Positions 9,909 to 27,354 of a stretch of 64,000 nt of DNA are shown here, piece after piece (the first letter of the stretch is position 1; each line of letters starts with the position of its first letter). This DNA is from a virus. Taxonomy: Duplodnaviria; Caudoviricetes. A program made the translations under genes and the position numbers. The notes under the pieces are model-generated. The model saw only the letters and a program-made list of their open reading frames with translations. It did not search any database and was not told the DNA's origin. The stretch is taken from the IMG/VR virus record IMGVR_UViG_3300033072_000306, positions 25,451 through 89,450 of that record. The stretch is one strand, 5' to 3'.

Positions 9909-10907
9909 TTAACCTTGTTCCTTCCAACATTTTACAAAACCATCTTCATCCCAACTATGCTCATATTCCTTGTTCTCACCTTTAGAGAAGAAGTCTGGTT
10001 CAGCATAGGCGATACTACTTGTTAAGAACCAATCGTACAACTTACATTTGATACCAAGCTCAGGGTAAGGCAGATTCTTACATCCATGACGTACAAAATA
10101 CACATTAGCCAACACTTTAACCAAATCAACGTAGTCACTTACAGGAACACCGTTAAACTCACCACTAGGTACTAATGAGTTAAGGATAAACTCTTCCATT
10201 GCCACTTGATTGCGTGTTGTTTCTAACAGACCGTTATAATACTCAACGTCTTCCTCAAGTGAACTATTAATCTCAGCATAATAGTAATTAAAAGATTTAG
10301 CTAGATACTCACTATGCAGCAACTCATCAATAGCAGACTGTTTTGTTCCCTTAACTGTGGTTGCAATCTTGTTAACACCATTAGCTTGAAACGATCTCAA
10401 TAGAGCAAACATGCTAAATAAAGAAACACCCTCAACAAGACCGAAGTTTAAACACACTTTCTTCTTATCTTTATCTTTAAGCACTTTACCAAGCCATTTT
10501 GCACGTTCTTTAAAAATTGGATCATTCAAGTAAGATAGATAGTGTTCATCATTGTCAGTACCAAAAACTTTGTTAATTTTATCGTAGAATCGAGCATGAA
10601 CAGCAAGTTCGATGGCATTGATTACCGCAGCACCTTCTTGGCATTCTGGAGCTTTAAAGAATTTTGGGTAAACATCTGTCCAAAACTTTGAAACATCAAT
10701 TTCGTACTTTCGGAAAGTTGGTAAAATTCTCTCCACAACAAATCGTTGTTCATCCGTTAATGAGTATAAAAGCTCCATTCGATCTTCTTCAACAACTCGA
10801 ATCTTACTAGCAAACCAAATTTGTTTCTCAAACTGCTTATTGGAAATATCCAAAAGATCAGGGTATTTTGTTTCATACCCATTGTACTCATCTGTAATCT
10901 TAATCAA
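9909..10907 (-). CDS. nrdB: class Ia ribonucleotide reductase beta subunit
   Basis: E.AVHARFY, VEGVSLFS.F, DELLH di-metal ligands, PDFF near C-terminus; TTG start. Confidence 0.93.
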   Translation of the reverse strand: MIKITDEYNGYETKYPDLLDISNKQFEKQIWFASKIRVVEEDRMELLYSLTDEQRFVVERILPTFRKYEIDVSKFWTDVYPKFFKAPECQEGAAVINAIELAVHARFYDKINKVFGTDNDEHYLSYLNDPIFKERAKWLGKVLKDKDKKKVCLNFGLVEGVSLFSMFALLRSFQANGVNKIATTVKGTKQSAIDELLHSEYLAKSFNYYYAEINSSLEEDVEYYNGLLETTRNQVAMEEFILNSLVPSGEFNGVPVSDYVDLVKVLANVYFVRHGCKNLPYPELGIKCKLYDWFLTSSIAYAEPDFFSKGENKEYEHSWDEDGFVKCWKEQG

Positions 10908-18972: not shown

Positions 18973-19256
18973 GACTTAACTACAACTGTTTTCTCAACTG
19001 GTCTCACCTCTGACAATTCAACACCTTTATCATCTTCGATGTGAGGGTAGTAGTAATCAGAGTAATAACTTCCAGAACGAGAGATTTCATACTTATAGTA
19101 TTTACCAGACTCATTGTTCATCACCACACAGGCTTGATATTCATATTTACCAGATGAAACCCAATCTCCTTCCTCAATCATTGTCCAAAGATAATCTTCA
19201 GAGAACTTTTCAGGTGATTCTTCAACCTCTTCAAAATCTTCTAAATTTAAAAACAT
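18957..19256 (-). CDS. hypothetical acidic protein
   Basis: 99-aa ORF with GGAG RBS. Confidence 0.7.
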   Translation of the reverse strand: MFLNLEDFEEVEESPEKFSEDYLWTMIEEGDWVSSGKYEYQACVVMNNESGKYYKYEISRSGSYYSDYYYPHIEDDKGVELSEVRPVEKTVVVKSWEYV

Positions 19257-19272
19257 AATACATCTTCTCCAA

Positions 19273-19599
19273 TTATTTACGTTTAGTTTGTTTGTTACGT
19301 TCTCGATAATACCTTTCTACTTTAGGACGTATCTTATCATACATCTTACCAAAACATTGTGGATACTGTCTATCCATAACATCAATTAAAGACCTATAAA
19401 TCGCCATAAGCTCCTCTTCAGAAGCATCGTCATGCTCACCTAACCACAACCCCTTACGGAACGCTGAACGCACTTGAGAGGCTAATGGAGTGAATGTAAA
19501 TCTACGATGGTCTAAGTCTTTTTCTTCTGGTTTAGGTGTGCCATGACTTTGATCCCATTTCGTAAAGGGTAAGATATTACCATACTCATCTGTTGCCAT
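19273..19599 (-). CDS. hypothetical protein with basic C-terminus
   Basis: start MATDE at 19599 follows AAGGAG; track start 19635 lies inside the inverted-repeat array. Confidence 0.7.
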   Translation of the reverse strand: MATDEYGNILPFTKWDQSHGTPKPEEKDLDHRRFTFTPLASQVRSAFRKGLWLGEHDDASEEELMAIYRSLIDVMDRQYPQCFGKMYDKIRPKVERYYRERNKQTKRK

Positions 19600-19617
19600 A
19601 TTTTCTCTCCTTAAATT

Positions 19618-19736
19618 TAAAATTAACAATGACAACGTGCGAATAGTTGCATTCAGTGGCTCTGCTTCTCTTGTACTTCGATACTACCTGTGTCGCCCAC
19701 AGACGTATTATGAATAATACAACATTGTTAATTTTA
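19618..19736. repeat. perfect 14-bp inverted repeat enclosing 91 nt with internal hairpins
   Basis: TAAAATTAACAATG (19618-19631) / CATTGTTAATTTTA (19723-19736). Confidence 0.9.
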
Positions 19737-19860
19737 GATAGTGTTCACCCTGTAACGACATTGCAAATAGTTACACAAACAGTCTATGCATATACTCACT
19801 GGATATACTTTCAACAACTGAATGAACCAAATTGAAGTAATGAACACTATCTAAAATTAA
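19728..19860. repeat. perfect 20-bp inverted repeat enclosing 93 nt with three hairpins
   Basis: TTAATTTTAGATAGTGTTCA (19728-19747) / TGAACACTATCTAAAATTAA (19841-19860). Confidence 0.92.
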
Positions 19861-20041
19861 TATCGCCTTTTACCGACACAGATAAGGCTGATCTGCTTTT
19901 TATTATGTCTGAATGATTATTTTCAACCTTAGCAGAGGTTGCCCATGAAGAATGTACTCTACTTTTATATATGACTAAGGAGGTAGCAGTGATACACACT
20001 ACAAAGTCTTCGAGTATTTAACATGTAATTGGCGTTACACA

Positions 20042-20081
20042 TTAAACCAAGCCTAAGCTCTTTAAACTAAACCTAAGCTCT
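20042..20081. repeat. 20-bp tandem direct repeat x2 (18/20 identical)
   Basis: TTAAACCAAGCCTAAGCTCT / TTAAACTAAACCTAAGCTCT. Confidence 0.85.
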
Positions 20082-20114
20082 GTACAAACGCCATCATTCT
20101 AATGGCATACTTAA

Positions 20115-20204
20115 AATTAACTTTAGTAGAATGTTTGTGAGTTGGACTTGGTATCCTTAGCGAAATCTATTCACACAGCGACAAACATTCTACTAAAGTT
20201 AATT
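20115..20204. repeat. perfect 24-bp inverted repeat enclosing 42 nt
   Basis: AATTAACTTTAGTAGAATGTTTGT (20115-20138) / ACAAACATTCTACTAAAGTTAATT (20181-20204). Confidence 0.93.
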
Positions 20205-20280
20205 GGTGAGCCGTGAGGAACTTGAATCCCCATACCTCGAAGTAGAATTTCGATGCATTATCCAATTATGCTAACGACCC
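20204..20280 (-). tRNA. trnR: tRNA-Arg, anticodon UCU, encoded CCA
   Basis: GGGTCGT/ACGGCTC acceptor, GCAT/ATGC D stem, TCGAA-ATTCTAC-TTCGA anticodon arm, GGGGA-TTCAAGT-TCCTC T arm, ACCA end; 77 nt. Confidence 0.93.
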
Positions 20281-20365
20281 ATTTAACAATGAGAGCACCC
20301 TAGAACACTCTCACGAATTTTTATTTAACTAAATGCATACTTGTATGTCACTGTCTATTTATAGA

Positions 20366-20989
20366 CTACCACTGATCATCTTCATTCTCTTGAGAATCTT
20401 CTGCAACTACAGCAGTCTCTTGAGCTTTAGCATTAGGATTTTCAGCTAATGATTTAACTTTACCTAAAGCACTAAACTTCTCAGTTACATCCCCACCTTT
20501 AGAGACATATTCATCAAGCTCTTCAACTTTGATAGCAACAAGATTAGCAAACTTACCGTACTTGTTTTCGTTGATCTCATATTGAGCAACACCTTTACTA
20601 CCATTACCAACAAGCTTAGTGAAAGTAATATCTTCAAGCTCACCATCAACTTCTTGCAATACTCGTGGGCGGTATTTATCAGCGATTGGAACACGAACAC
20701 CATCTTTCTCGTAAGATTCATTTTTCTTCAATTTAATGAAGAACTGCTCATCTGTACCGATTGCATTTGTTTCACCGAACTTCTCAACGAAATCATCGTA
20801 ATCCATTTCTTTAGGTTTGTTCTTAGGAAATTCCTTACCCCAAGCTTTAGCTGTTGCTTTATCGACATGAAGATCAACAACATACTCATTACCATCTTCA
20901 GGGTTAAACTTTGGTGACGGGTTTTGAATCTTTGTGTAATAAAAACCAACACCTTCGATTACTTGAGCTTCTGTATTTAACTTTGACAT
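20366..20989 (-). CDS. ssb: single-stranded DNA-binding protein (T7 gp2.5-like)
   Basis: Y.KIQNP..KF, VGNGSKG, L.AIKV.EL.EY, acidic tail ending in an aromatic residue (EDDQW). Confidence 0.8.
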   Translation of the reverse strand: MSKLNTEAQVIEGVGFYYTKIQNPSPKFNPEDGNEYVVDLHVDKATAKAWGKEFPKNKPKEMDYDDFVEKFGETNAIGTDEQFFIKLKKNESYEKDGVRVPIADKYRPRVLQEVDGELEDITFTKLVGNGSKGVAQYEINENKYGKFANLVAIKVEELDEYVSKGGDVTEKFSALGKVKSLAENPNAKAQETAVVAEDSQENEDDQW

Positions 20990-21142
20990 ATTTAAATTGT
21001 TTCCTTATTTAGTTTGTATAATGAATGTCATTAACATTCTTGCATTTGCTACAATAGTTGGAAGTAACTTACATCTCCAAATATTAATGTGTATCTAAAC
21101 ATTAATTAAAAATTAAATTTAATTGCTGTCTTGATGTTGTGT

Positions 21143-21171
21143 ATTCTATTAAAACCTAAAGGTCTAAGCAA
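21143..21171 (-). promoter_or_regulatory. sigma70-type promoter for ssb/tRNA operon, inside a terminator-like hairpin
   Basis: TTGCTT(21171-21166)-N17-TAGAAT(21148-21143). Confidence 0.7.
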
Positions 21172-21240
21172 TAGGTTTTTTAAGAATGTTTGTATCTCGT
21201 TTGTAACTGTTAAGTTACACCTTTGTAAACGCTATTTATA

Positions 21241-21453
21241 TTAGCTCTTACTCTCAGAATCAGTTTCAAAATACTCTATAGGGTTATCTTGAATATCCTT
21301 CTTCAAAGTGCTAATAAACTCCGATAAAGCATAGTCACAAAGTTTTGATGCATATTCACCAAGAATAGCACTAAACTCCTCATGCTTCTCCTCTGCAACG
21401 TATGACAACAAACGCTTAATATCTGAAATTAATACTTCACTTTCTTTTGACAT
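21241..21453 (-). CDS. hypothetical protein
   Basis: 70-aa ORF with GGAG RBS. Confidence 0.65.
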   Translation of the reverse strand: MSKESEVLISDIKRLLSYVAEEKHEEFSAILGEYASKLCDYALSEFISTLKKDIQDNPIEYFETDSESKS

Positions 21454-21454
21454 T

Positions 21455-22192
21455 CTAACTCTCCTGATTACTCTTTAGCTCTTCAATCATAAGCTCAATA
21501 GCTTTCTTCATAGTTTCTTGATTACCCCAATAGACAGCATCAATGAACATATACTTGTTACCAACCCAATGAGATTTAACTTTCTCAACTAAAGATTGAA
21601 ACTCTAAAGAATCTGACAACTGATCTACAAAAGATGGTAAATCATTATCAATAGAGTAGTTAATATACCATAAAGCTTTCTTCAACTCTTGCAAATCTTC
21701 ATCTTTCTTTCCACAACGCCAAACATACTTAACAGCATTACTAATACAAGCTGGTAGTAAAGATGTAACCTCAATAGCTTCAACACTACAATCATCGGAT
21801 GTATAGTGCTTAGGGTGATTAACAGTGTCCGCTACAATGTGTACAGCATCATCTAGATTATTCACATTTCGTTTCCACACAAGTTTCCCATACTCCTTAA
21901 CATATTTTTTAATTTCTTGATATGTTGGAAAATCGCTATTTACATTATCACTCCAATAAGCGTATGACCATGTATCTTCTAAATCCTTTGTATAGAAAAT
22001 CAAATCCTTTGTTCCCTCTGGATCACTTCCATCAAAGTAGTAACACTCGTCAGCTTCCTCTGGAATTTTAATCCAATCAATTCCTCGTGGTTGTCCGCCA
22101 TCTAAACACTTAAAAGTTTTCTTGTTAATGTATAAATCGTTATTCAAAGTCGTACTCCCATCCATTCTGATTATGAACACTATATTCACCAA
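21455..22192 (-). CDS. DUF3310-domain protein
   Basis: DTVNHPKHY...EAIE...NAVKYVWRCGKK...ELKKALWYI. Confidence 0.75.
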   Translation of the reverse strand: MVNIVFIIRMDGSTTLNNDLYINKKTFKCLDGGQPRGIDWIKIPEEADECYYFDGSDPEGTKDLIFYTKDLEDTWSYAYWSDNVNSDFPTYQEIKKYVKEYGKLVWKRNVNNLDDAVHIVADTVNHPKHYTSDDCSVEAIEVTSLLPACISNAVKYVWRCGKKDEDLQELKKALWYINYSIDNDLPSFVDQLSDSLEFQSLVEKVKSHWVGNKYMFIDAVYWGNQETMKKAIELMIEELKSNQES

Positions 22193-22317: not shown

Positions 22318-22566
22318 TTAATACTCACCAATTTGTTGCTTAAACAACCTTAGTGCTTGTTGGTATGATAACTCACCCTTATCACTTAAACAATACCCTT
22401 TGACAATATTTAGTGAAGTTTCTTTATCACCAACCTCACAACTCCATATTAAAGAGTATTTCTTAGATAACTTCTTAGCAAGAGTTAATGATAATCCCTC
22501 ATCAACAATGAAAGCTTCCTTGCTCTCAGAGTTGATTACGAATATGTTGTATAGTATCTTAGTTAT
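22318..22566 (-). CDS. 82-codon ORF with non-canonical ATA start (or start-lost gene)
   Basis: AAGGAG 7 nt before ATA, which overlaps the upstream TAA; open frame fills the whole gap; in-frame TAA just upstream. Confidence 0.5.
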   Translation of the reverse strand: MTKILYNIFVINSESKEAFIVDEGLSLTLAKKLSKKYSLIWSCEVGDKETSLNIVKGYCLSDKGELSYQQALRLFKQQIGEY

Positions 22567-23567
22567 AAATTGTCTCCTTTAGTGGCATAGTTAAACAATT
22601 GCACAAACTCCTCTTTGTCGATATAAGAAAAACATTCAGTATATCCTTGAAAGTCGTTCTTTGGAGAATATTTGAAATCTAAGAATAAGTTGTGCATAAG
22701 TCTTTCCATATTATAAATAACCTTTGCAGATTTATGAAAACAATACTCCAGTAATTCAACTTTGTATCCAGATGTCCTTGAAATCTCACGCACCCTATCT
22801 GCTATGTCTTTAGATATTCCTATTTTATAAAACATTTCATCTCTGCTAGATAGTTTCAATAAGTATAAATTACTACCATTTGGGCATACCTTTTCATAAT
22901 CACTCGCACTATATCCACCACTGATTTTGCCACATTCAGGACAACCATTTCCAGCTAAATGATAATAAGGAATCTGCTCGAAATTTCCATGTTCCTTGCA
23001 ACCAATTTTAATAGGATTCCTACATCCAGTATATTCTACATTAGAGTAATTATACGTGTTACCATGTTTTAGTGTCGCCTTAGAAATGAAATCTTCCAGA
23101 CAATCTCTACCTCTAAGATTCCTATTCTCGTCTGAACACCTCTCACAATGATGCCCTCTGCTCAGAATCCAGTTGGGTTTAGTTTTGTATTTGCCATGTT
23201 TTACGCATTCTACTTCTGTATAATCCAACGACTTAGTATACTTAAAATCACAGAAAGAAAACAGGTTAGACTGTTCTCCATGCTTTTCTTCAAACACTCT
23301 TTTAAAGTATTCTGTCTTATCACCACAAACACTTTTGAAACCAACTTTACATCCTTTAGCGAGATTTGTTCGTGTAATCTTATGTGTAAATCCGAATGAA
23401 TCCTCGACAAATATGTAAGGATTCTTCTCTAAGATATATCTGTACCCCATAGAAGCACAGATACCCTTATAATCATATTTAATCTTATTAGCCAATTTAT
23501 CTCCTTTATTAGTGAATTTCGCTATATTTTGTTCCGAACTGTGTATCACAACCAAATTGAATATCAA
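22563..23567 (-). CDS. free-standing GIY-YIG (T5orf172-like) homing endonuclease with Cys/His zinc-finger repeats (DUF723-like)
   Basis: C..HG...P..L.G..C..C twice; LYLLK...FYKIGIS...R...E..H...GYTECF; true start probably near LANKIK. Confidence 0.8.
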   Translation of the reverse strand: MIFNLVVIHSSEQNIAKFTNKGDKLANKIKYDYKGICASMGYRYILEKNPYIFVEDSFGFTHKITRTNLAKGCKVGFKSVCGDKTEYFKRVFEEKHGEQSNLFSFCDFKYTKSLDYTEVECVKHGKYKTKPNWILSRGHHCERCSDENRNLRGRDCLEDFISKATLKHGNTYNYSNVEYTGCRNPIKIGCKEHGNFEQIPYYHLAGNGCPECGKISGGYSASDYEKVCPNGSNLYLLKLSSRDEMFYKIGISKDIADRVREISRTSGYKVELLEYCFHKSAKVIYNMERLMHNLFLDFKYSPKNDFQGYTECFSYIDKEEFVQLFNYATKGDNL

Positions 23568-25599: not shown

Positions 25600-27354
25600 T
25601 TAAAAAGGAATTTCATCCTCATCGTCATCCACGATCACAACACTTTTCTTAATACTGGCTGTGTTAGCAACCTCTGTTGTTTCATCATCGTAAAGTTGAA
25701 TAGACCAATCCACATCATTTAAAGAGAATACATCAGCAATTCCTAAATCACCAAACTCACGATTCTTTAAGATACCCCAACGTACACGCCCACGTTTCTT
25801 ATTAGGAAGATACTCTCGTTCCAAACTTAAAACATTCCATGAAAGTTGCTCTAAACCACCTGAACCACGTAGATGCGATAAAGAGATACTGTTCCAGAAT
25901 GGCTCATCTTCCTTGCCTTTTGGCGGTGTTACACTGCTTCCTTGACGATTTAAATGTACAACAAGAATAATTCCAATATCATTAGCTGCACAGAATGCTG
26001 CAAGCTCAGTCATAACAATATCAATCTCTTTACGTTCATCTTTAATATCACTTCCAGAGATAACCATAGATAAATGATCTAGGACGATATAATCACACTT
26101 CTCAATAAAGTACATGTGCTTAACTTTCGCCATTAACTCTTTAATAGGCATTGAGCCAAAGTGATCTAAGAAGATAATATTGTCACGCTTACACAAGTCA
26201 TTATACACTCTAGTAATATCTTCTTGTGAAGCCACAGCTAAAGGATTTCGCTTATACTCTCGGTAAGACACTTTCAACTCTGCTGCGATACTACGCTGTA
26301 GAGTCTTAGTTGCTGTTTCCTCAAGATAGATTGTCCCAGCTTTATAACCTTGATCACGAATATCATCGCAAATCTTTGATACTGCTGTAGTTTTTCCTGC
26401 ACCACTGCTCGCACTGATGATAGTTAATTCACGTTTACGAAATCCTCCAAGCATTTCATTAAGTTTAGGGAAGCAATCTACTTGAACACCAAGCTCAAGA
26501 GGTCGCATAACATCCTCTAAAGAAATATCGCTAACATGAAGAATCTTCTCAGTCACTAAAGGCTTACGCTCAAACTGTACTAACTTTGCAAGCGAGTTTG
26601 ATGCTTCGGCTAAATCCTTGAAAACACCTTTATGATCTTGCAGATAATCGCTTGCATCCTTATACCCATGCAAAGGCTGAATACTGAATAACTCAATACT
26701 GCCAATGAAAGCTCCAGAGACCTCCTCACGAGCTTCCTTACCTTTTAGAACGCCTTTCTTTAACTCTGCTGGTGTAGCGTAATCATCATCAAAGAAGATC
26801 GTCATACTGTCGAATGATTGGACAAATTCTTTATTGTGCAACAAAGCCTCTGTAGCATTCTTAGTGCCTAAAGGGATTGAAACAACAAATGGCTCTTGAC
26901 CTTCGTATTTAGTCCCCTCTAAACTGTCCAATTGGGCTTGATAAACAGATAAGCAATCCCATTGACCTTCTGTAACAGTGAAGTTTGTGTGCTTACGATT
27001 AATAGTCTCAGCAACGTCTTGACCAAAAAGCTTATTGCCAATCCCAACCTTACCAACAGCAGTCCAATGAAAATCTTCATCTTTACGCTTAGTTAGGTCT
27101 TGCTTCATAAATCCTGTAACTTCACCTTTATTGTTATAGGATGGAAAATAAAATGCTGTTGGTGTTTTCCCATCTAGCTCTGATACAGATGAACGAACAC
27201 CGAATTTCTCTAAAGTATCCTTTCGGATTCCACGTTCACGAAAACCTTTGAATGGATACTTTAGAACATCTTCGATAGTTTCTTTTGGTGTATTCATTTC
27301 ACCATCTTTACTTGTTGACACGTAATCTCCTTTAATCTTTTTGAAGTAACCCAC
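25600..27354 (-). CDS. primase-helicase (T7 gp4-like TOPRIM + DnaB-like helicase), no N-terminal zinc-binding domain
   Basis: TEGQWD and FFDDD (TOPRIM); SGAGKT Walker A, VLDHL Walker B, HLNR, LRGSGGLEQ, KNREFG; GTG start, in-frame TGA 6 nt upstream. Confidence 0.92.
   Translation of the reverse strand: MGYFKKIKGDYVSTSKDGEMNTPKETIEDVLKYPFKGFRERGIRKDTLEKFGVRSSVSELDGKTPTAFYFPSYNNKGEVTGFMKQDLTKRKDEDFHWTAVGKVGIGNKLFGQDVAETINRKHTNFTVTEGQWDCLSVYQAQLDSLEGTKYEGQEPFVVSIPLGTKNATEALLHNKEFVQSFDSMTIFFDDDYATPAELKKGVLKGKEAREEVSGAFIGSIELFSIQPLHGYKDASDYLQDHKGVFKDLAEASNSLAKLVQFERKPLVTEKILHVSDISLEDVMRPLELGVQVDCFPKLNEMLGGFRKRELTIISASSGAGKTTAVSKICDDIRDQGYKAGTIYLEETATKTLQRSIAAELKVSYREYKRNPLAVASQEDITRVYNDLCKRDNIIFLDHFGSMPIKELMAKVKHMYFIEKCDYIVLDHLSMVISGSDIKDERKEIDIVMTELAAFCAANDIGIILVVHLNRQGSSVTPPKGKEDEPFWNSISLSHLRGSGGLEQLSWNVLSLEREYLPNKKRGRVRWGILKNREFGDLGIADVFSLNDVDWSIQLYDDETTEVANTASIKKSVVIVDDDEDEIPF

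What the first reader, a model, noticed from the sequence alone, without database searches (positions are those of the whole stretch)
19618..20204. Array of long-stem, multi-hairpin RNA modules fused to the 3' end of tRNA-Arg: candidate undescribed large phage ncRNA system
Seen: ~590 non-coding nt hold three perfect inverted repeats (14, 20 and 24 bp). Each encloses a branched interior: unit 19618-19736 has GTATTA/TAATAC, CTGTG/CACAG and TGC/GCA hairpins; unit 19728-19860 has three hairpins forming a four-way junction; unit 20115-20204 has two. A 250-nt hairpin-rich linker lies between them (CAACCT/AGGTTG, GCCAT/ATGGC, TGTAAT/GTTACA). Modules are punctuated by TTAATTTTA on the tRNA strand. Established: large ornate phage ncRNAs (GOLLD, ROOL) and the T4 band C/D RNAs sit in tRNA clusters. 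Inference: these are one or more stable RNAs cut from the ssb-tRNA transcript (RNase P/E/III), of a class I do not recognise.
Basis: partly seen in the sequence, partly recalled or inferred. Interest (0 to 1): 0.85.

Follow-up and report, generated by a model that had tools for sequence, protein, structure and literature searches.

The report
Swappable folded-RNA cassettes beside phage tRNA
The gene-free 590 bases after the tRNA-Arg gene of this Acinetobacter-type phage are a row of separate folded RNA modules, each closed by a long helix and swapped between close relatives; one belongs to an uncatalogued RNA family found in about ninety Acinetobacter phage genomes, and its function is unknown.

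Summary
Three of the only five long inverted repeats in 64 kb lie at 19615-20204. The region has no credible ORF, and Rfam finds only tRNA-Arg.

It is not one large ornate RNA. It is a row of cassettes on the minus strand: tRNA-Arg, unit 3, a 254-nt hairpin linker, unit 2, unit 1, then an ORF.

Two close relatives keep the linker at about 96% identity. The same slots hold unrelated interiors, another tRNA-Arg plus tRNA-Met, or nothing. Every junction is a TTAA.

Unit 1 belongs to an RNA family absent from Rfam. It occurs in 91 Acinetobacter phage records (Friunavirus, Obolenskvirus, BS46-like) and 42 IMG/VR contigs. It has a closing helix, a GCGA-loop hairpin, a hypervariable insert and an invariant 19-nt hairpin. 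The two variable helices covary. Many members start about 7 nt after a sigma-70 promoter and precede tRNA genes.

Unit 3 recurs in AM24-type tRNA clusters, with its stems rewritten but still paired.

Best reading: small RNAs excised from the transcript at the long helices, probably by host RNase III. The function is inferred only; I favour a tRNA-shaped decoy or ligand. Expression was not shown. Earlier follow-ups of this scan described the same kind of locus in other Acinetobacter phages.

The parts
20204..20280 (-). tRNA-Arg(TCT) with encoded CCA. It occupies the first cassette slot.
   Evidence: ARAGORN. cmscan RF00005 gives 53.2 bits. In L007 the slot holds a non-homologous tRNA-Arg(TCT) plus tRNA-Met. 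In L063 it is empty.
20115..20204 (-). Unit 3: a 24-bp perfect closing helix (20115-20138/20181-20204) around a 42-nt interior with two hairpins (GUGAA/UUCGC and GGAU/GUCC).
   Evidence: z -8.7. The interior is conserved in the tRNA clusters of phages Mithridates, Bestia and AM24, with GUGAA/UUCGC changed to GUGCC/GGCGC or GUGCC/GGUGC and the closing helix rewritten but paired. The interior is replaced by 143 nt in L007/L063 and by 221 nt in a metatranscriptome contig.
19861..20114 (-). Linker with about six hairpins: about 20088-20108, 20049-20080, 20016-20047, 19973-20008, 19924-19941 and 19875-19909.
   Evidence: About 96% identical in L007 and also kept in L063. In the three-sequence consensus fold, about 10 substitutions fall in stems and 9 keep the pair, several only as G-U on the minus strand, plus one stepwise AU>GU>GC change. 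No relative in 50,697 phage records.
19728..19860 (-). Unit 2: a 20-bp perfect closing helix around a 93-nt interior with 2-3 predicted hairpins.
   Evidence: z -5.5. L007 keeps the stem (with one G-U) around an unrelated 71-nt interior. The unit is absent from L063. The stem resembles the UUAGAGAAGUGAA/UUCACUUCAUCUAAG stems of other Acinetobacter phages.
19615..19739 (-). Unit 1, a member of the widespread family. Parts: P1 19615-19631/19723-19739; extra hairpin 19705-19720; P2 (CUGUG-GGCGA-CACAG) 19688-19702; variable insert 19651-19687; P3 (GCAAC-UAUUCGCAC-GUUGU) 19632-19650.
   Evidence: Model R1 gives 66.7 bits, E 1e-14. Family alignment A2 and pair counts. The variable insert is replaced by 82 nt in a close relative.
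19273..19599 (-). Downstream ORF of 108 aa with no known family. Its ribosome-binding site directly follows the 3' arm of unit 1.
   Evidence: 93% identical protein in L007. Present in L063 without units 1 and 2.
20366..20989 (-). It has an acidic C-terminus.
   Evidence: 38-47% identical to proteins of AM24- and B9-type Acinetobacter phages, one of them annotated as 'ssDNA binding and annealing protein'. No Pfam, NCBIfam or PDB match.

Best explanation
Window 19615-20280 is a cassette array of small RNA genes on the minus strand. It is transcribed with the flanking genes. In order: tRNA-Arg, unit 3, a multi-hairpin linker RNA, unit 2, unit 1.

Each unit pairs its own 5' and 3' ends into a long helix of 17-24 bp. 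I infer that host RNase III cuts these helices. That would free the 3' side of the tRNA for trimming back to its encoded CCA, release each interior as a small stable RNA, and give the downstream mRNA a new 5' end.

Unit 1 is the functional core. It belongs to a family specific to Acinetobacter phages and folds as a four- or five-way junction. The closing helix P1 is followed by a 2-nt joint and then a 5-bp hairpin (P2) with an NGCGA loop. Next comes a hypervariable insert. A 5-bp hairpin (P3) with the invariant loop UAUUCGCAC then runs straight back into P1. The GCGA and UCGC loops can pair with each other. The layout is tRNA-like, with the variable insert where the anticodon arm would be.

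I infer that it acts in trans on a host factor that recognises tRNA shape, as a decoy or ligand. One candidate target is a host nuclease that attacks tRNAs.

Shown: the anatomy, the conservation, the covariation, the strand, the promoter and tRNA context of the family, and the cassette swapping at TTAA junctions. Inferred: transcription in this phage, cutting by RNase III, and the decoy function.
For: Structure under selection:
- Unit-1 family, 36 distinct sequences: 96.3% of cells paired. Ten pairs show changes on both sides. 62 such cells are seen against 14.7 in shuffles (0 of 500 reach it) and 4-12 in slid controls. P2 occurs as CUGUG/CACAG, CCGUA/UACGG and CCAUG/CAUGG. P1 occurs as GAUCG, GAUUG, GGUUG, GAAUG and, in the window, CAAUG.
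- Linker: 9 of about 10 stem substitutions keep pairing.
- Unit 3: compensatory changes in its hairpin, and a closing helix completely rewritten yet still paired.

Strand and transcription of the family:
- In about 22 of 35 members a -10 hexamer (TATTAT or TAATAT, often with TTGACA 17-18 nt upstream) ends at a fixed distance, about 7 nt before P1. Nine of 35 match at least 10 of 12 consensus positions, against 2% of shuffles.
- One member (L036) is followed directly by an intrinsic terminator.
- tRNA genes lie downstream on the same strand in at least six lineages.
- In the window, all neighbouring genes and the tRNA are on the minus strand.

Excision by the long helix:
- P1 is 22 bp in Friunavirus and 17 nt in the window lineage, where the element lies inside a longer transcript.
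- P1 is 7-12 bp in most members where the RNA starts at a promoter.
- The 24-bp helix of unit 3 begins at the A of the tRNA's CCA.
- That perfect RNA helices of 20 bp or more are RNase III substrates is established knowledge from T7 early RNA and rRNA operon stems.

Widespread and host-bound: 91 of 91 phage records with the motif are Acinetobacter phages of unrelated families. Each genome checked has at most one copy.

tRNA theme: sister cassettes with the conserved UUAGAGAAGUGAA/UUCACUUCAUCUAAG stems enclose tRNA-like RNAs with crippled anticodon loops or T-arm-like hairpins.
Against: - There is no expression evidence for this phage. The metatranscriptome material consists of contigs of relatives and may be DNA carry-over.
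- No sigma-70 promoter above chance lies in 19200-21300.
- P3 and the proposed loop-loop pairing never vary, partly because members were collected through an exact P3 18-mer. A search that left the P2 loop free found no new member. The kissing interaction is therefore untested.
- G-U pairs exceed A-C pairs in the helices only 19 to 10, which is weak strand evidence on its own.
- tRNA likeness is topological only. The tRNA model and ARAGORN reject all three units, and no CCA follows P1.
- The variable insert folds into one or two hairpins, not a single arm.
- Some members with a short P1 have no recognisable promoter.
- The full helices of units 1 and 2 compete for 12 nt.
- Nothing identifies the host partner.
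Confidence: 0.5

Rival explanations
1. Processing spacers only. The long helices are RNase III or insulator sites that separate the tRNA and the flanking mRNAs. The interiors are neutral filler with no function of their own.
For: The interiors of units 2 and 3 are replaced wholesale between relatives whose flanks are about 96% identical, while the stems are kept. The helix starts exactly at the CCA of the tRNA. An earlier follow-up of this scan reached this reading for a similar tRNA spacer.
Against: The unit-1 core is nearly invariant across unrelated phage families. It also occurs as the first or only RNA of promoter-driven units. The unit-3 interior is conserved in AM24-type phages while its stems are rewritten. 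The linker, which is not a long helix, is the best-kept part, with pair-preserving changes.
Confidence: 0.17
2. Selfish DNA. The units are small non-autonomous mobile elements (MITE-like) with terminal inverted repeats. They insert at TTAA, and any RNA folding is incidental.
For: Every module is bounded by TTAA on both sides. Empty slots in L063 carry a single TTAA (CACTGTTAAC|TTTAGAG; ATATTAATTAAGG). The arms are inverted repeats with a shared outer motif. The modules occur in unrelated phages at different genome positions. A free-standing endonuclease-like gene lies 2.4 kb away.
Against: Each unit is single-copy in the 89-kb genome. The tRNA slot behaves the same way, although tRNAs have no inverted repeats. 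TTAA is a palindrome in AT-rich DNA, so a target duplication cannot be told apart from stem extension or microhomology. Helices inside the elements covary and use G-U pairs. Many family members are placed precisely behind promoters. No transposase is known for these lytic phages. Mobility and RNA function can both be true.
Confidence: 0.12
3. Cis-acting leader. The unit-1 family is a riboswitch-like or antitermination element that controls the RNA or tRNA operon or the gene downstream of it.
For: It has aptamer-like architecture, with a closing helix, a junction and complementary loops. Many members lie directly after a promoter and ahead of tRNAs. In the window and in Friunavirus the 3' arm of P1 abuts a ribosome-binding site.
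Against: Its position in transcripts is not constant: at the head in Obolenskvirus, inside the late operon in Friunavirus, and at the tail of the array here. There is no conserved expression platform. One member is followed directly by a terminator, as a stand-alone gene would be. The hypervariable insert would be unusual for an aptamer.
Confidence: 0.1
4. The conserved unit-1 core is a new self-cleaving ribozyme that trims the RNA array.
For: The core is small, with invariant joints and loops, covarying stems and a tolerated variable stem. It sits in a phage tRNA context where processing is needed. An earlier follow-up of this scan reported a hammerhead beside such modules in another Acinetobacter phage (not verified here).
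Against: No match to any known ribozyme class in any locus tested. No cleavage site can be inferred. The long helices already offer a processing route.
Confidence: 0.06
5. Decayed tRNA genes. The units are pseudogenes left from a larger tRNA cluster.
For: They lie next to a tRNA. Relatives carry more tRNAs or tRNA-like RNAs in the same slots.
Against: cmscan at E up to 10 and ARAGORN find no tRNA remnant in any unit. Perfect 20-24-bp helices, covariation and near-invariance across 90 genomes do not fit decay.
Confidence: 0.04

Closest known systems
Stable small RNAs of phage tRNA clusters: T4 species 1 and 2 RNAs (rnaC, rnaD) and the T5 tRNA-region RNAs
   Same: Non-coding structured RNAs of about 100-140 nt, encoded beside and on the same strand as phage tRNA genes. 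They are presumed to be cut from the same precursor, and their function is unknown (established knowledge; the comparison itself rests on memory and on earlier scan notes).
   Different: No sequence or model match could be tested. The modules here are closed by 17-24-bp helices and are swapped as cassettes. One of them is shared by podoviruses that have no tRNA cluster.
RNase III processing helices: T7 early-region sites and the stems that flank 16S and 23S rRNA
   Same: The 5' and 3' flanks of the excised RNA pair into a helix of about two turns inside a polycistronic transcript.
   Different: The helices here are perfect and AT-rich, and part of their sequence is conserved across phages (UUUAGA...UCUAAA). 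Cleavage is not shown.
GOLLD and ROOL, large ornate phage and prophage RNAs (Rfam families)
   Same: Structured phage RNAs, often next to tRNA genes, with unknown function.
   Different: No model match. GOLLD and ROOL are single RNAs of about 600-800 nt with a fixed architecture. This is an array of independent modules of 90-250 nt that vary in presence.
YrlA / bacterial Y RNAs (tRNA-like RNAs bound by Ro/Rsr)
   Same: A stem formed by the two RNA ends, plus a head that can mimic tRNA.
   Different: No Rfam match. In the sister cassettes the T-arm-like hairpin lies at the 3' side of the head, so the closing stem corresponds to the acceptor stem, not the anticodon stem. The phage has no TROVE (Ro) gene.
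MITEs and other TIR-bounded miniature mobile elements
   Same: Terminal inverted repeats, variable interiors, TTAA on both sides, and presence/absence between close relatives.
   Different: Single copy per genome, internal covarying RNA helices, exact placement behind promoters, and no transposase in view.

Membership tests
Any Rfam 15 family, including GOLLD, ROOL, YrlA, tmRNA, riboswitches and self-cleaving ribozymes | Match to the family covariance model | tested here: not met
   Window at gathering score: none. Window 19200-20500 at E up to 10: only tRNA-Arg plus two chance hits outside the units. Compact Friunavirus member: only spurious long-stem miRNA hits. Obolenskvirus locus: none. 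141 kb of family loci: tRNAs only.
tRNA or degenerate tRNA | Cloverleaf recognised by RF00005 or ARAGORN, with a T-loop and an anticodon loop | tested here: not met
   Only 20204-20280 is called. Unit 1 has a tRNA-like helix order (P1, 2-nt joint, P2, insert, P3 flush with P1) but a 9-nt P3 loop and no CCA.
Phage tRNA-cluster stable RNAs (T4 rnaC/rnaD, T5 RNAs) | Encoded beside tRNA genes on the same strand | tested here: met
   Unit 3 abuts tRNA-Arg. Its homologue lies between tRNA-Tyr and tRNA-Ile in Mithridates and AM24. The unit-1 family precedes tRNAs in at least six lineages.
Phage tRNA-cluster stable RNAs (T4 rnaC/rnaD, T5 RNAs) | Accumulates as a discrete stable RNA processed from the tRNA precursor | not testable with these tools
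   Only metatranscriptome contigs of relatives were available, with no ends or strand.
RNase III processing site | RNA helix of about 20 bp or more formed by the flanks of the excised RNA | tested here: met
   Helices of 24, 20 and 17 bp. 22 bp in Friunavirus members.
RNase III processing site | Staggered cleavage dependent on RNase III | not testable with these tools
   The phage has no RNase III gene, so a host enzyme would be required.
MITE / TIR mobile element | Terminal inverted repeats and a target-site duplication | tested here: inconclusive
   Inverted repeats are present. TTAA lies on both sides of each unit, and once at the empty slots of L063. TTAA is palindromic, and the tRNA slot, which has no inverted repeats, shows the same junctions.
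MITE / TIR mobile element | Several copies per genome | tested here: not met
   Each unit is single-copy in the 89,450-bp genome.
Unit-1 RNA family of Acinetobacter phages (defined here, model R1) | P1, AA joint, P2 with NGCGA loop, insert, and P3 GCAAC-UAUUCGCAC-GUUGC flush with P1 | tested here: met
   Window 19619-19717 scores 66.7 bits, E 1e-14. It differs by its own P1 sequence, an extra hairpin between P1 and P2, and a G-U closing pair in P3.

The most novel reading that the evidence does not exclude
Acinetobacter phages may share a horizontally exchanged toolkit of small RNA genes kept in TTAA-delimited slots: tRNAs, tRNA mimics and other folded RNAs. Its most conserved member would be a tRNA-shaped RNA whose 'anticodon arm' position is hypervariable because it is in an arms race with host tRNA-targeting defences. 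That would be an RNA-based anti-defence decoy system with its own cassette-exchange mechanism.
Probability: 0.15. Interest if true: 0.85.

Novelty: new variant of a known kind. Interest (0 to 1): 0.62.

Why it matters
Friunavirus and Obolenskvirus phages are widely isolated and characterised as candidates for therapy against drug-resistant Acinetobacter baumannii. Yet this RNA, kept nearly invariant in about ninety of their genomes, is unannotated, absent from Rfam, and not mentioned in the one infection transcriptome paper I could check. This window adds the clearest view of how such RNAs are organised. They sit as interchangeable cassettes closed by long helices, next to tRNA genes, with slots that are filled, swapped or empty in near-identical relatives. 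If the RNAs counter a host defence or take over a host tRNA-binding factor, they bear on host range and on engineering of therapeutic phages. If not, they are still a well-supported new structured RNA family with a rare feature, a hypervariable insert in an invariant scaffold. They also make the old question of what stable RNAs in phage tRNA clusters do testable in a tractable host.

Tried and rejected
- Rfam at gathering and permissive thresholds on the window and on relatives: nothing but tRNAs. The whole-window gathering run also missed the real tRNA-Arg.
- Hammerhead lead from an earlier scan note: none found in the Obolenskvirus locus or in 141 kb of family loci.
- Related loci through the upstream 207-aa protein: no relative.
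- P2 motif GTCTGTGGGCGACACAG in IMG/VR: besides L007's own contig, the other two hits lie in coding-looking sequence and are read as chance.
- Genome collection scan for the P3 18-mer: 8 hits. Seven are in unrelated bacteria, which is about chance level by my own estimate for 596 Gb. One (L058) is a 41.6-kb contig filed under a Streptococcus MAG that carries a full family member. None is labelled Acinetobacter, so there is no sign of a host or prophage copy.
- Search with the P2 loop left free, to look for loop covariation: 68 loci, no new family member. The weak model hits that were read lie in coding sequence.
- Linker and unit-2 interior against 50,697 phage records: no relative.
- Antisense targets in the phage's own genome: no match longer than 14-16 nt. 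The two places inspected (10536-10549 and 10570-10581) lie inside a 332-aa ORF.
- Sigma-70 promoters and terminators within the array: no more than chance.
- Sequencing runs: four metatranscriptomes hold 8-11% of the words. When laid, they are contigs of relatives at 90-95% identity, without strand, ends or proof of RNA origin. They are used only as further alleles of the cassettes.
- Literature: no paper holds the motif as text, and the phiAbp1 (Friunavirus) infection transcriptome paper does not mention non-coding or intergenic RNA.
- Phage-encoded Ro (TROVE) or RNase III: absent.
Full report
**What is in the sequence**

Genes around the finding all run on the minus strand. In order they are:
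- a 207-aa ORF (20989-20366);
- tRNA-Arg(TCT) (20280-20204, with CCA encoded);
- about 590 nt without a credible ORF;
- a 108-aa ORF (19599-19273) whose ribosome-binding site follows directly.

The three inverted repeats exist as described: 24 nt perfect, 20 nt perfect, and 17 nt at 94%. A scan of the whole window for repeats of this size finds five, and three are here. The minus-strand RNA folds far better than shuffled sequence. The z-score is -6.1 overall, -8.7 for unit 3 and -5.5 for unit 2. TTAATTTTA is over-represented in the window (12 against 4.1 expected), and four copies mark the module borders.

**Not a catalogued RNA**

cmscan finds nothing but the tRNA, even at E up to 10 on a 1.3-kb slice. 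ARAGORN finds one tRNA in the whole 89,450-bp genome. The window is part of an IMG/VR virus record estimated 96% complete. Its proteins are 38-47% identical to those of the roughly 95-kb Acinetobacter myophages AM24, Mithridates, B9 and TaPaz.

**A cassette array, not one large RNA**

Two close relatives were recovered: L007 from IMG/VR and L063 from a metagenome. Aligned with the window they show the following.
- The 254-nt linker is about 96% identical to L007's. The aligned columns show unit 1 about as well kept.
- The interior of unit 2 (93 nt) is replaced in L007 by an unrelated 71 nt.
- The interior of unit 3 (42 nt) is replaced by an unrelated 143 nt. The outer stems are kept in both cases.
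- L007 carries a tRNA-Arg(TCT) of quite different sequence, plus a tRNA-Met, where the window has its tRNA-Arg.
- L063 has no tRNA at all, and no units 2 and 1.

The junctions are exact. L063 reads CACTGTTAAC|TTTAGAG. The window reads ...TTAA-A-[tRNA-Arg]-A-TTAA-C|TTTAG. L063 also reads GGCGATATTAATTAAGGAG where the window has TTAA-[unit 2]-TTAA-[unit 1]-TTAA. Every module in the window is bounded by TTAA.

Metatranscriptome contigs of further relatives add a third allele of the unit-3 interior (221 nt) and a second allele of the variable part of unit 1 (82 nt). So the locus is a row of slots holding interchangeable RNA genes.

**Unit 1 belongs to a widespread family**

A BLAST of unit 1 against 50,697 phage records finds 91 records, all Acinetobacter phages. 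Among those listed are:
- Friunavirus podoviruses, between the capsid region and the tail tubular protein A gene;
- 45-kb Obolenskvirus myoviruses, in an unannotated gap of 0.5-0.8 kb;
- BS46, after a DUF3310 gene. The same gene family lies upstream of the array in the window.

The exact 18-mer GCAACTATTCGCACGTTG retrieves 42 IMG/VR contigs. In 596 Gb of bacterial genomes it finds only a chance-level number of hits, plus one 41.6-kb contig (L058) that carries a full family member.

The family consensus, in RNA sense, is:
- P1 5' arm, then AA-U;
- P2 hairpin of 5 bp with an NGCGA loop;
- an insert of 30-81 nt that is unrelated between many members;
- P3 = GCAAC-UAUUCGCAC-GUUGC, followed at once by the P1 3' arm.

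On 36 distinct sequences, 96.3% of cells pair. Ten pairs show changes on both sides. There are 62 such cells against 14.7 in shuffles (0 of 500 reach it) and 4-12 when partners are slid. P3 and the possible GCGA:UCGC loop-loop pairing never vary. This is partly because I collected members through P3. A search that left the P2 loop free found no additional member.

A covariance model built from the alignment scores the window copy at 66.7 bits. It finds one copy in this genome and in BS46, and none in Mithridates or AM24. The window copy has its own P1 sequence, an extra hairpin between P1 and P2, and a G-U closing pair in P3.

**It is an RNA gene, and the sense strand is the tRNA strand**

In about 22 of 35 members a -10 hexamer ends at one fixed distance, about 7 nt before P1. 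It is often paired with TTGACA at 17-18 nt. Nine members match at least 10 of 12 consensus positions, against 2% of shuffles. One member (L036) is followed directly by an intrinsic terminator. tRNA genes follow on the same strand in at least six lineages, and no other Rfam family occurs in 141 kb of such loci.

P1 length tracks context. It is 22 bp in Friunavirus and 17 nt in the window lineage, where the element lies inside a longer transcript. It is 7-12 bp in most members where the RNA begins at a promoter. This fits excision through the long helix, although a few short-P1 members lack a recognisable promoter.

**The other parts also look like selected RNA**

- Linker: among three sequences, about ten substitutions fall in predicted stems and nine keep the pair. 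Several do so only as G-U on the minus strand, and one pair goes AU>GU>GC. Loops vary freely.
- Unit 3: its interior recurs right after tRNA-Tyr in Mithridates, Bestia and AM24. The hairpin changes from GUGAA/UUCGC to GUGCC/GGCGC or GUGCC/GGUGC. The closing helix is wholly rewritten but paired. The 3' part GGAUACCAAGUCCAACUC is invariant.
- Stems of units 2 and 3: they are variants of a stem family (UUAGAGAAGUGAA...UUCACUUCAUCUAAG, often with a bulged A). In Obolenskvirus, BS46-like and AM24-like phages these stems enclose heads of very different sequence. Some heads are tRNA-like RNAs with crippled anticodon loops or T-arm-like hairpins.

**How it most likely works**

Shown: the anatomy, conservation, covariation, strand, context and cassette exchange.

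Inferred: the array is transcribed with its neighbours. No promoter above chance lies inside it. Host RNase III cuts the 17-24-bp helices; the phage has no RNase III gene. The cuts would free the 3' side of the tRNA, the small RNAs and the downstream mRNA.

Units 1 and 2 share 12 nt of arm. Unit 2's helix should therefore form first, and unit 1's full P1 could form only after unit 2 is cut or remodelled. This step is speculative.

For the unit-1 RNA I favour a trans-acting, tRNA-shaped ligand or decoy for a host factor, for these reasons:
- The helix order mimics tRNA.
- The hypervariable insert sits at the anticodon-arm position.
- The RNA travels with tRNAs and tRNA mimics.
- It is confined to phages of one host genus.

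This reading is a hypothesis. The tRNA model rejects the element, no CCA follows P1, and the insert often forms two hairpins.

**Rivals**

- Pure processing spacers fit units 2 and 3 better than unit 1, the unit-3 interior or the linker.
- A MITE-like mobile DNA reading is encouraged by the TTAA junctions and inverted repeats. Against it: each unit is single-copy, the tRNA slot shows the same junctions, and the internal helices covary. Mobility and RNA function may coexist.
- A cis-acting leader, a new ribozyme and decayed tRNAs are less likely (see the rival entries).

**What is known and what is new**

The nearest known things are:
- the stable RNAs of the T4 and T5 tRNA clusters, which share location, size and unknown function;
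- RNase III processing helices, which share the excision logic;
- GOLLD and ROOL, which share only the phage-plus-tRNA context and fail the model test.

No paper in the searchable library holds the motif. The one Friunavirus infection transcriptome paper does not mention non-coding RNA.

Earlier follow-ups of this same scan described modular RNA loci, a cloverleaf-shaped shared module and self-pairing tRNA spacers in other Acinetobacter phages. I used these as leads, re-derived the family independently, and did not find their hammerhead in the loci I tested.

**Verdict**

This is a real, conserved and uncatalogued RNA locus. It is a new variant of the phage stable-RNA kind. Its cassette organisation is unusually clear, and its function is open.

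Noticed in passing
window 22563-23567 (-): A free-standing endonuclease-like ORF of 334 aa lies 2.4 kb upstream of the RNA array. It matches T5orf172/MUG113 and DUF723 domains and PHROG 'endonuclease' and 'HNH endonuclease' families. It might promote exchange of neighbouring cassettes.
   Followed up: no
window 21455-22192 (-); L012 338-1363: A DUF3310 protein (PHROG 'nucleotide kinase') lies upstream of the RNA array here. In phage BS46 a DUF3310 gene directly precedes a 725-nt unannotated gap that holds the unit-1 family member and a stem-closed cassette.
   Followed up: partly
window 19623-19632 and 20283-20292: A 10-nt direct repeat (TTAACAATGA on the plus strand, TCATTGTTAA in RNA sense) brackets the whole block from the tRNA to unit 1. 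On its own it may be chance.
   Followed up: no
L002 2170-2242 (-) (phage IME-Ap7): An unannotated tRNA-like gene (RF00005 45 bits; ARAGORN 'tRNA-???' with a two-base anticodon) is enclosed by the conserved UUAGAGAAGUGAA/UUCACUUCAUCUAAG stems. L021 holds a similar tRNA-like RNA that appears to have a 3-nt 'anticodon' loop.
   Followed up: partly
L011 1120-1250 (Friunavirus vB_AbaP_B5): The outer 6 nt of the 22-bp P1 (GUUUAC) are also the 3' half of the preceding GAAA-tetraloop hairpin (GUAAACUCGAAAGGGUUUAC). That hairpin and the full P1 therefore exclude each other, much like the shared arm of units 1 and 2 in the window.
   Followed up: no
L007 3346-3514; L012 about 1620-1776: The 143-nt unit-3 interior of L007/L063 shares GGCGGTGG.A.TGATCA.CCATTGTAAAATAC with a BS46 cassette. 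It ends in a T-arm-like hairpin (GAGUG-UUCAACU-CACUC). The same slot therefore holds a tRNA-like head in relatives and a small three-way junction in the window.
   Followed up: partly
window 19751-19786: A 36-nt piece of the unit-2 interior occurs in short metatranscriptome contigs with other flanks. Its depth there is higher than that of neighbouring contigs (15.9 and 20.2 against 2-8). It may be part of another abundant RNA elsewhere.
   Followed up: no
window 1-64000: The whole-window Rfam run at gathering score missed tRNA-Arg (53 bits against a cut-off of 29). The 1.3-kb run and ARAGORN both found it, so this is a filter effect to bear in mind for negative results.
   Followed up: yes
window 27209-27265: Another inverted repeat (16 nt, 94%, 25-nt loop: TCTAAAGTATCC.../...GGATACTTTAGA) carries the CTTTAGA/TCTAAAG words of the cassette stems in the reverse arrangement.
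   Followed up: no
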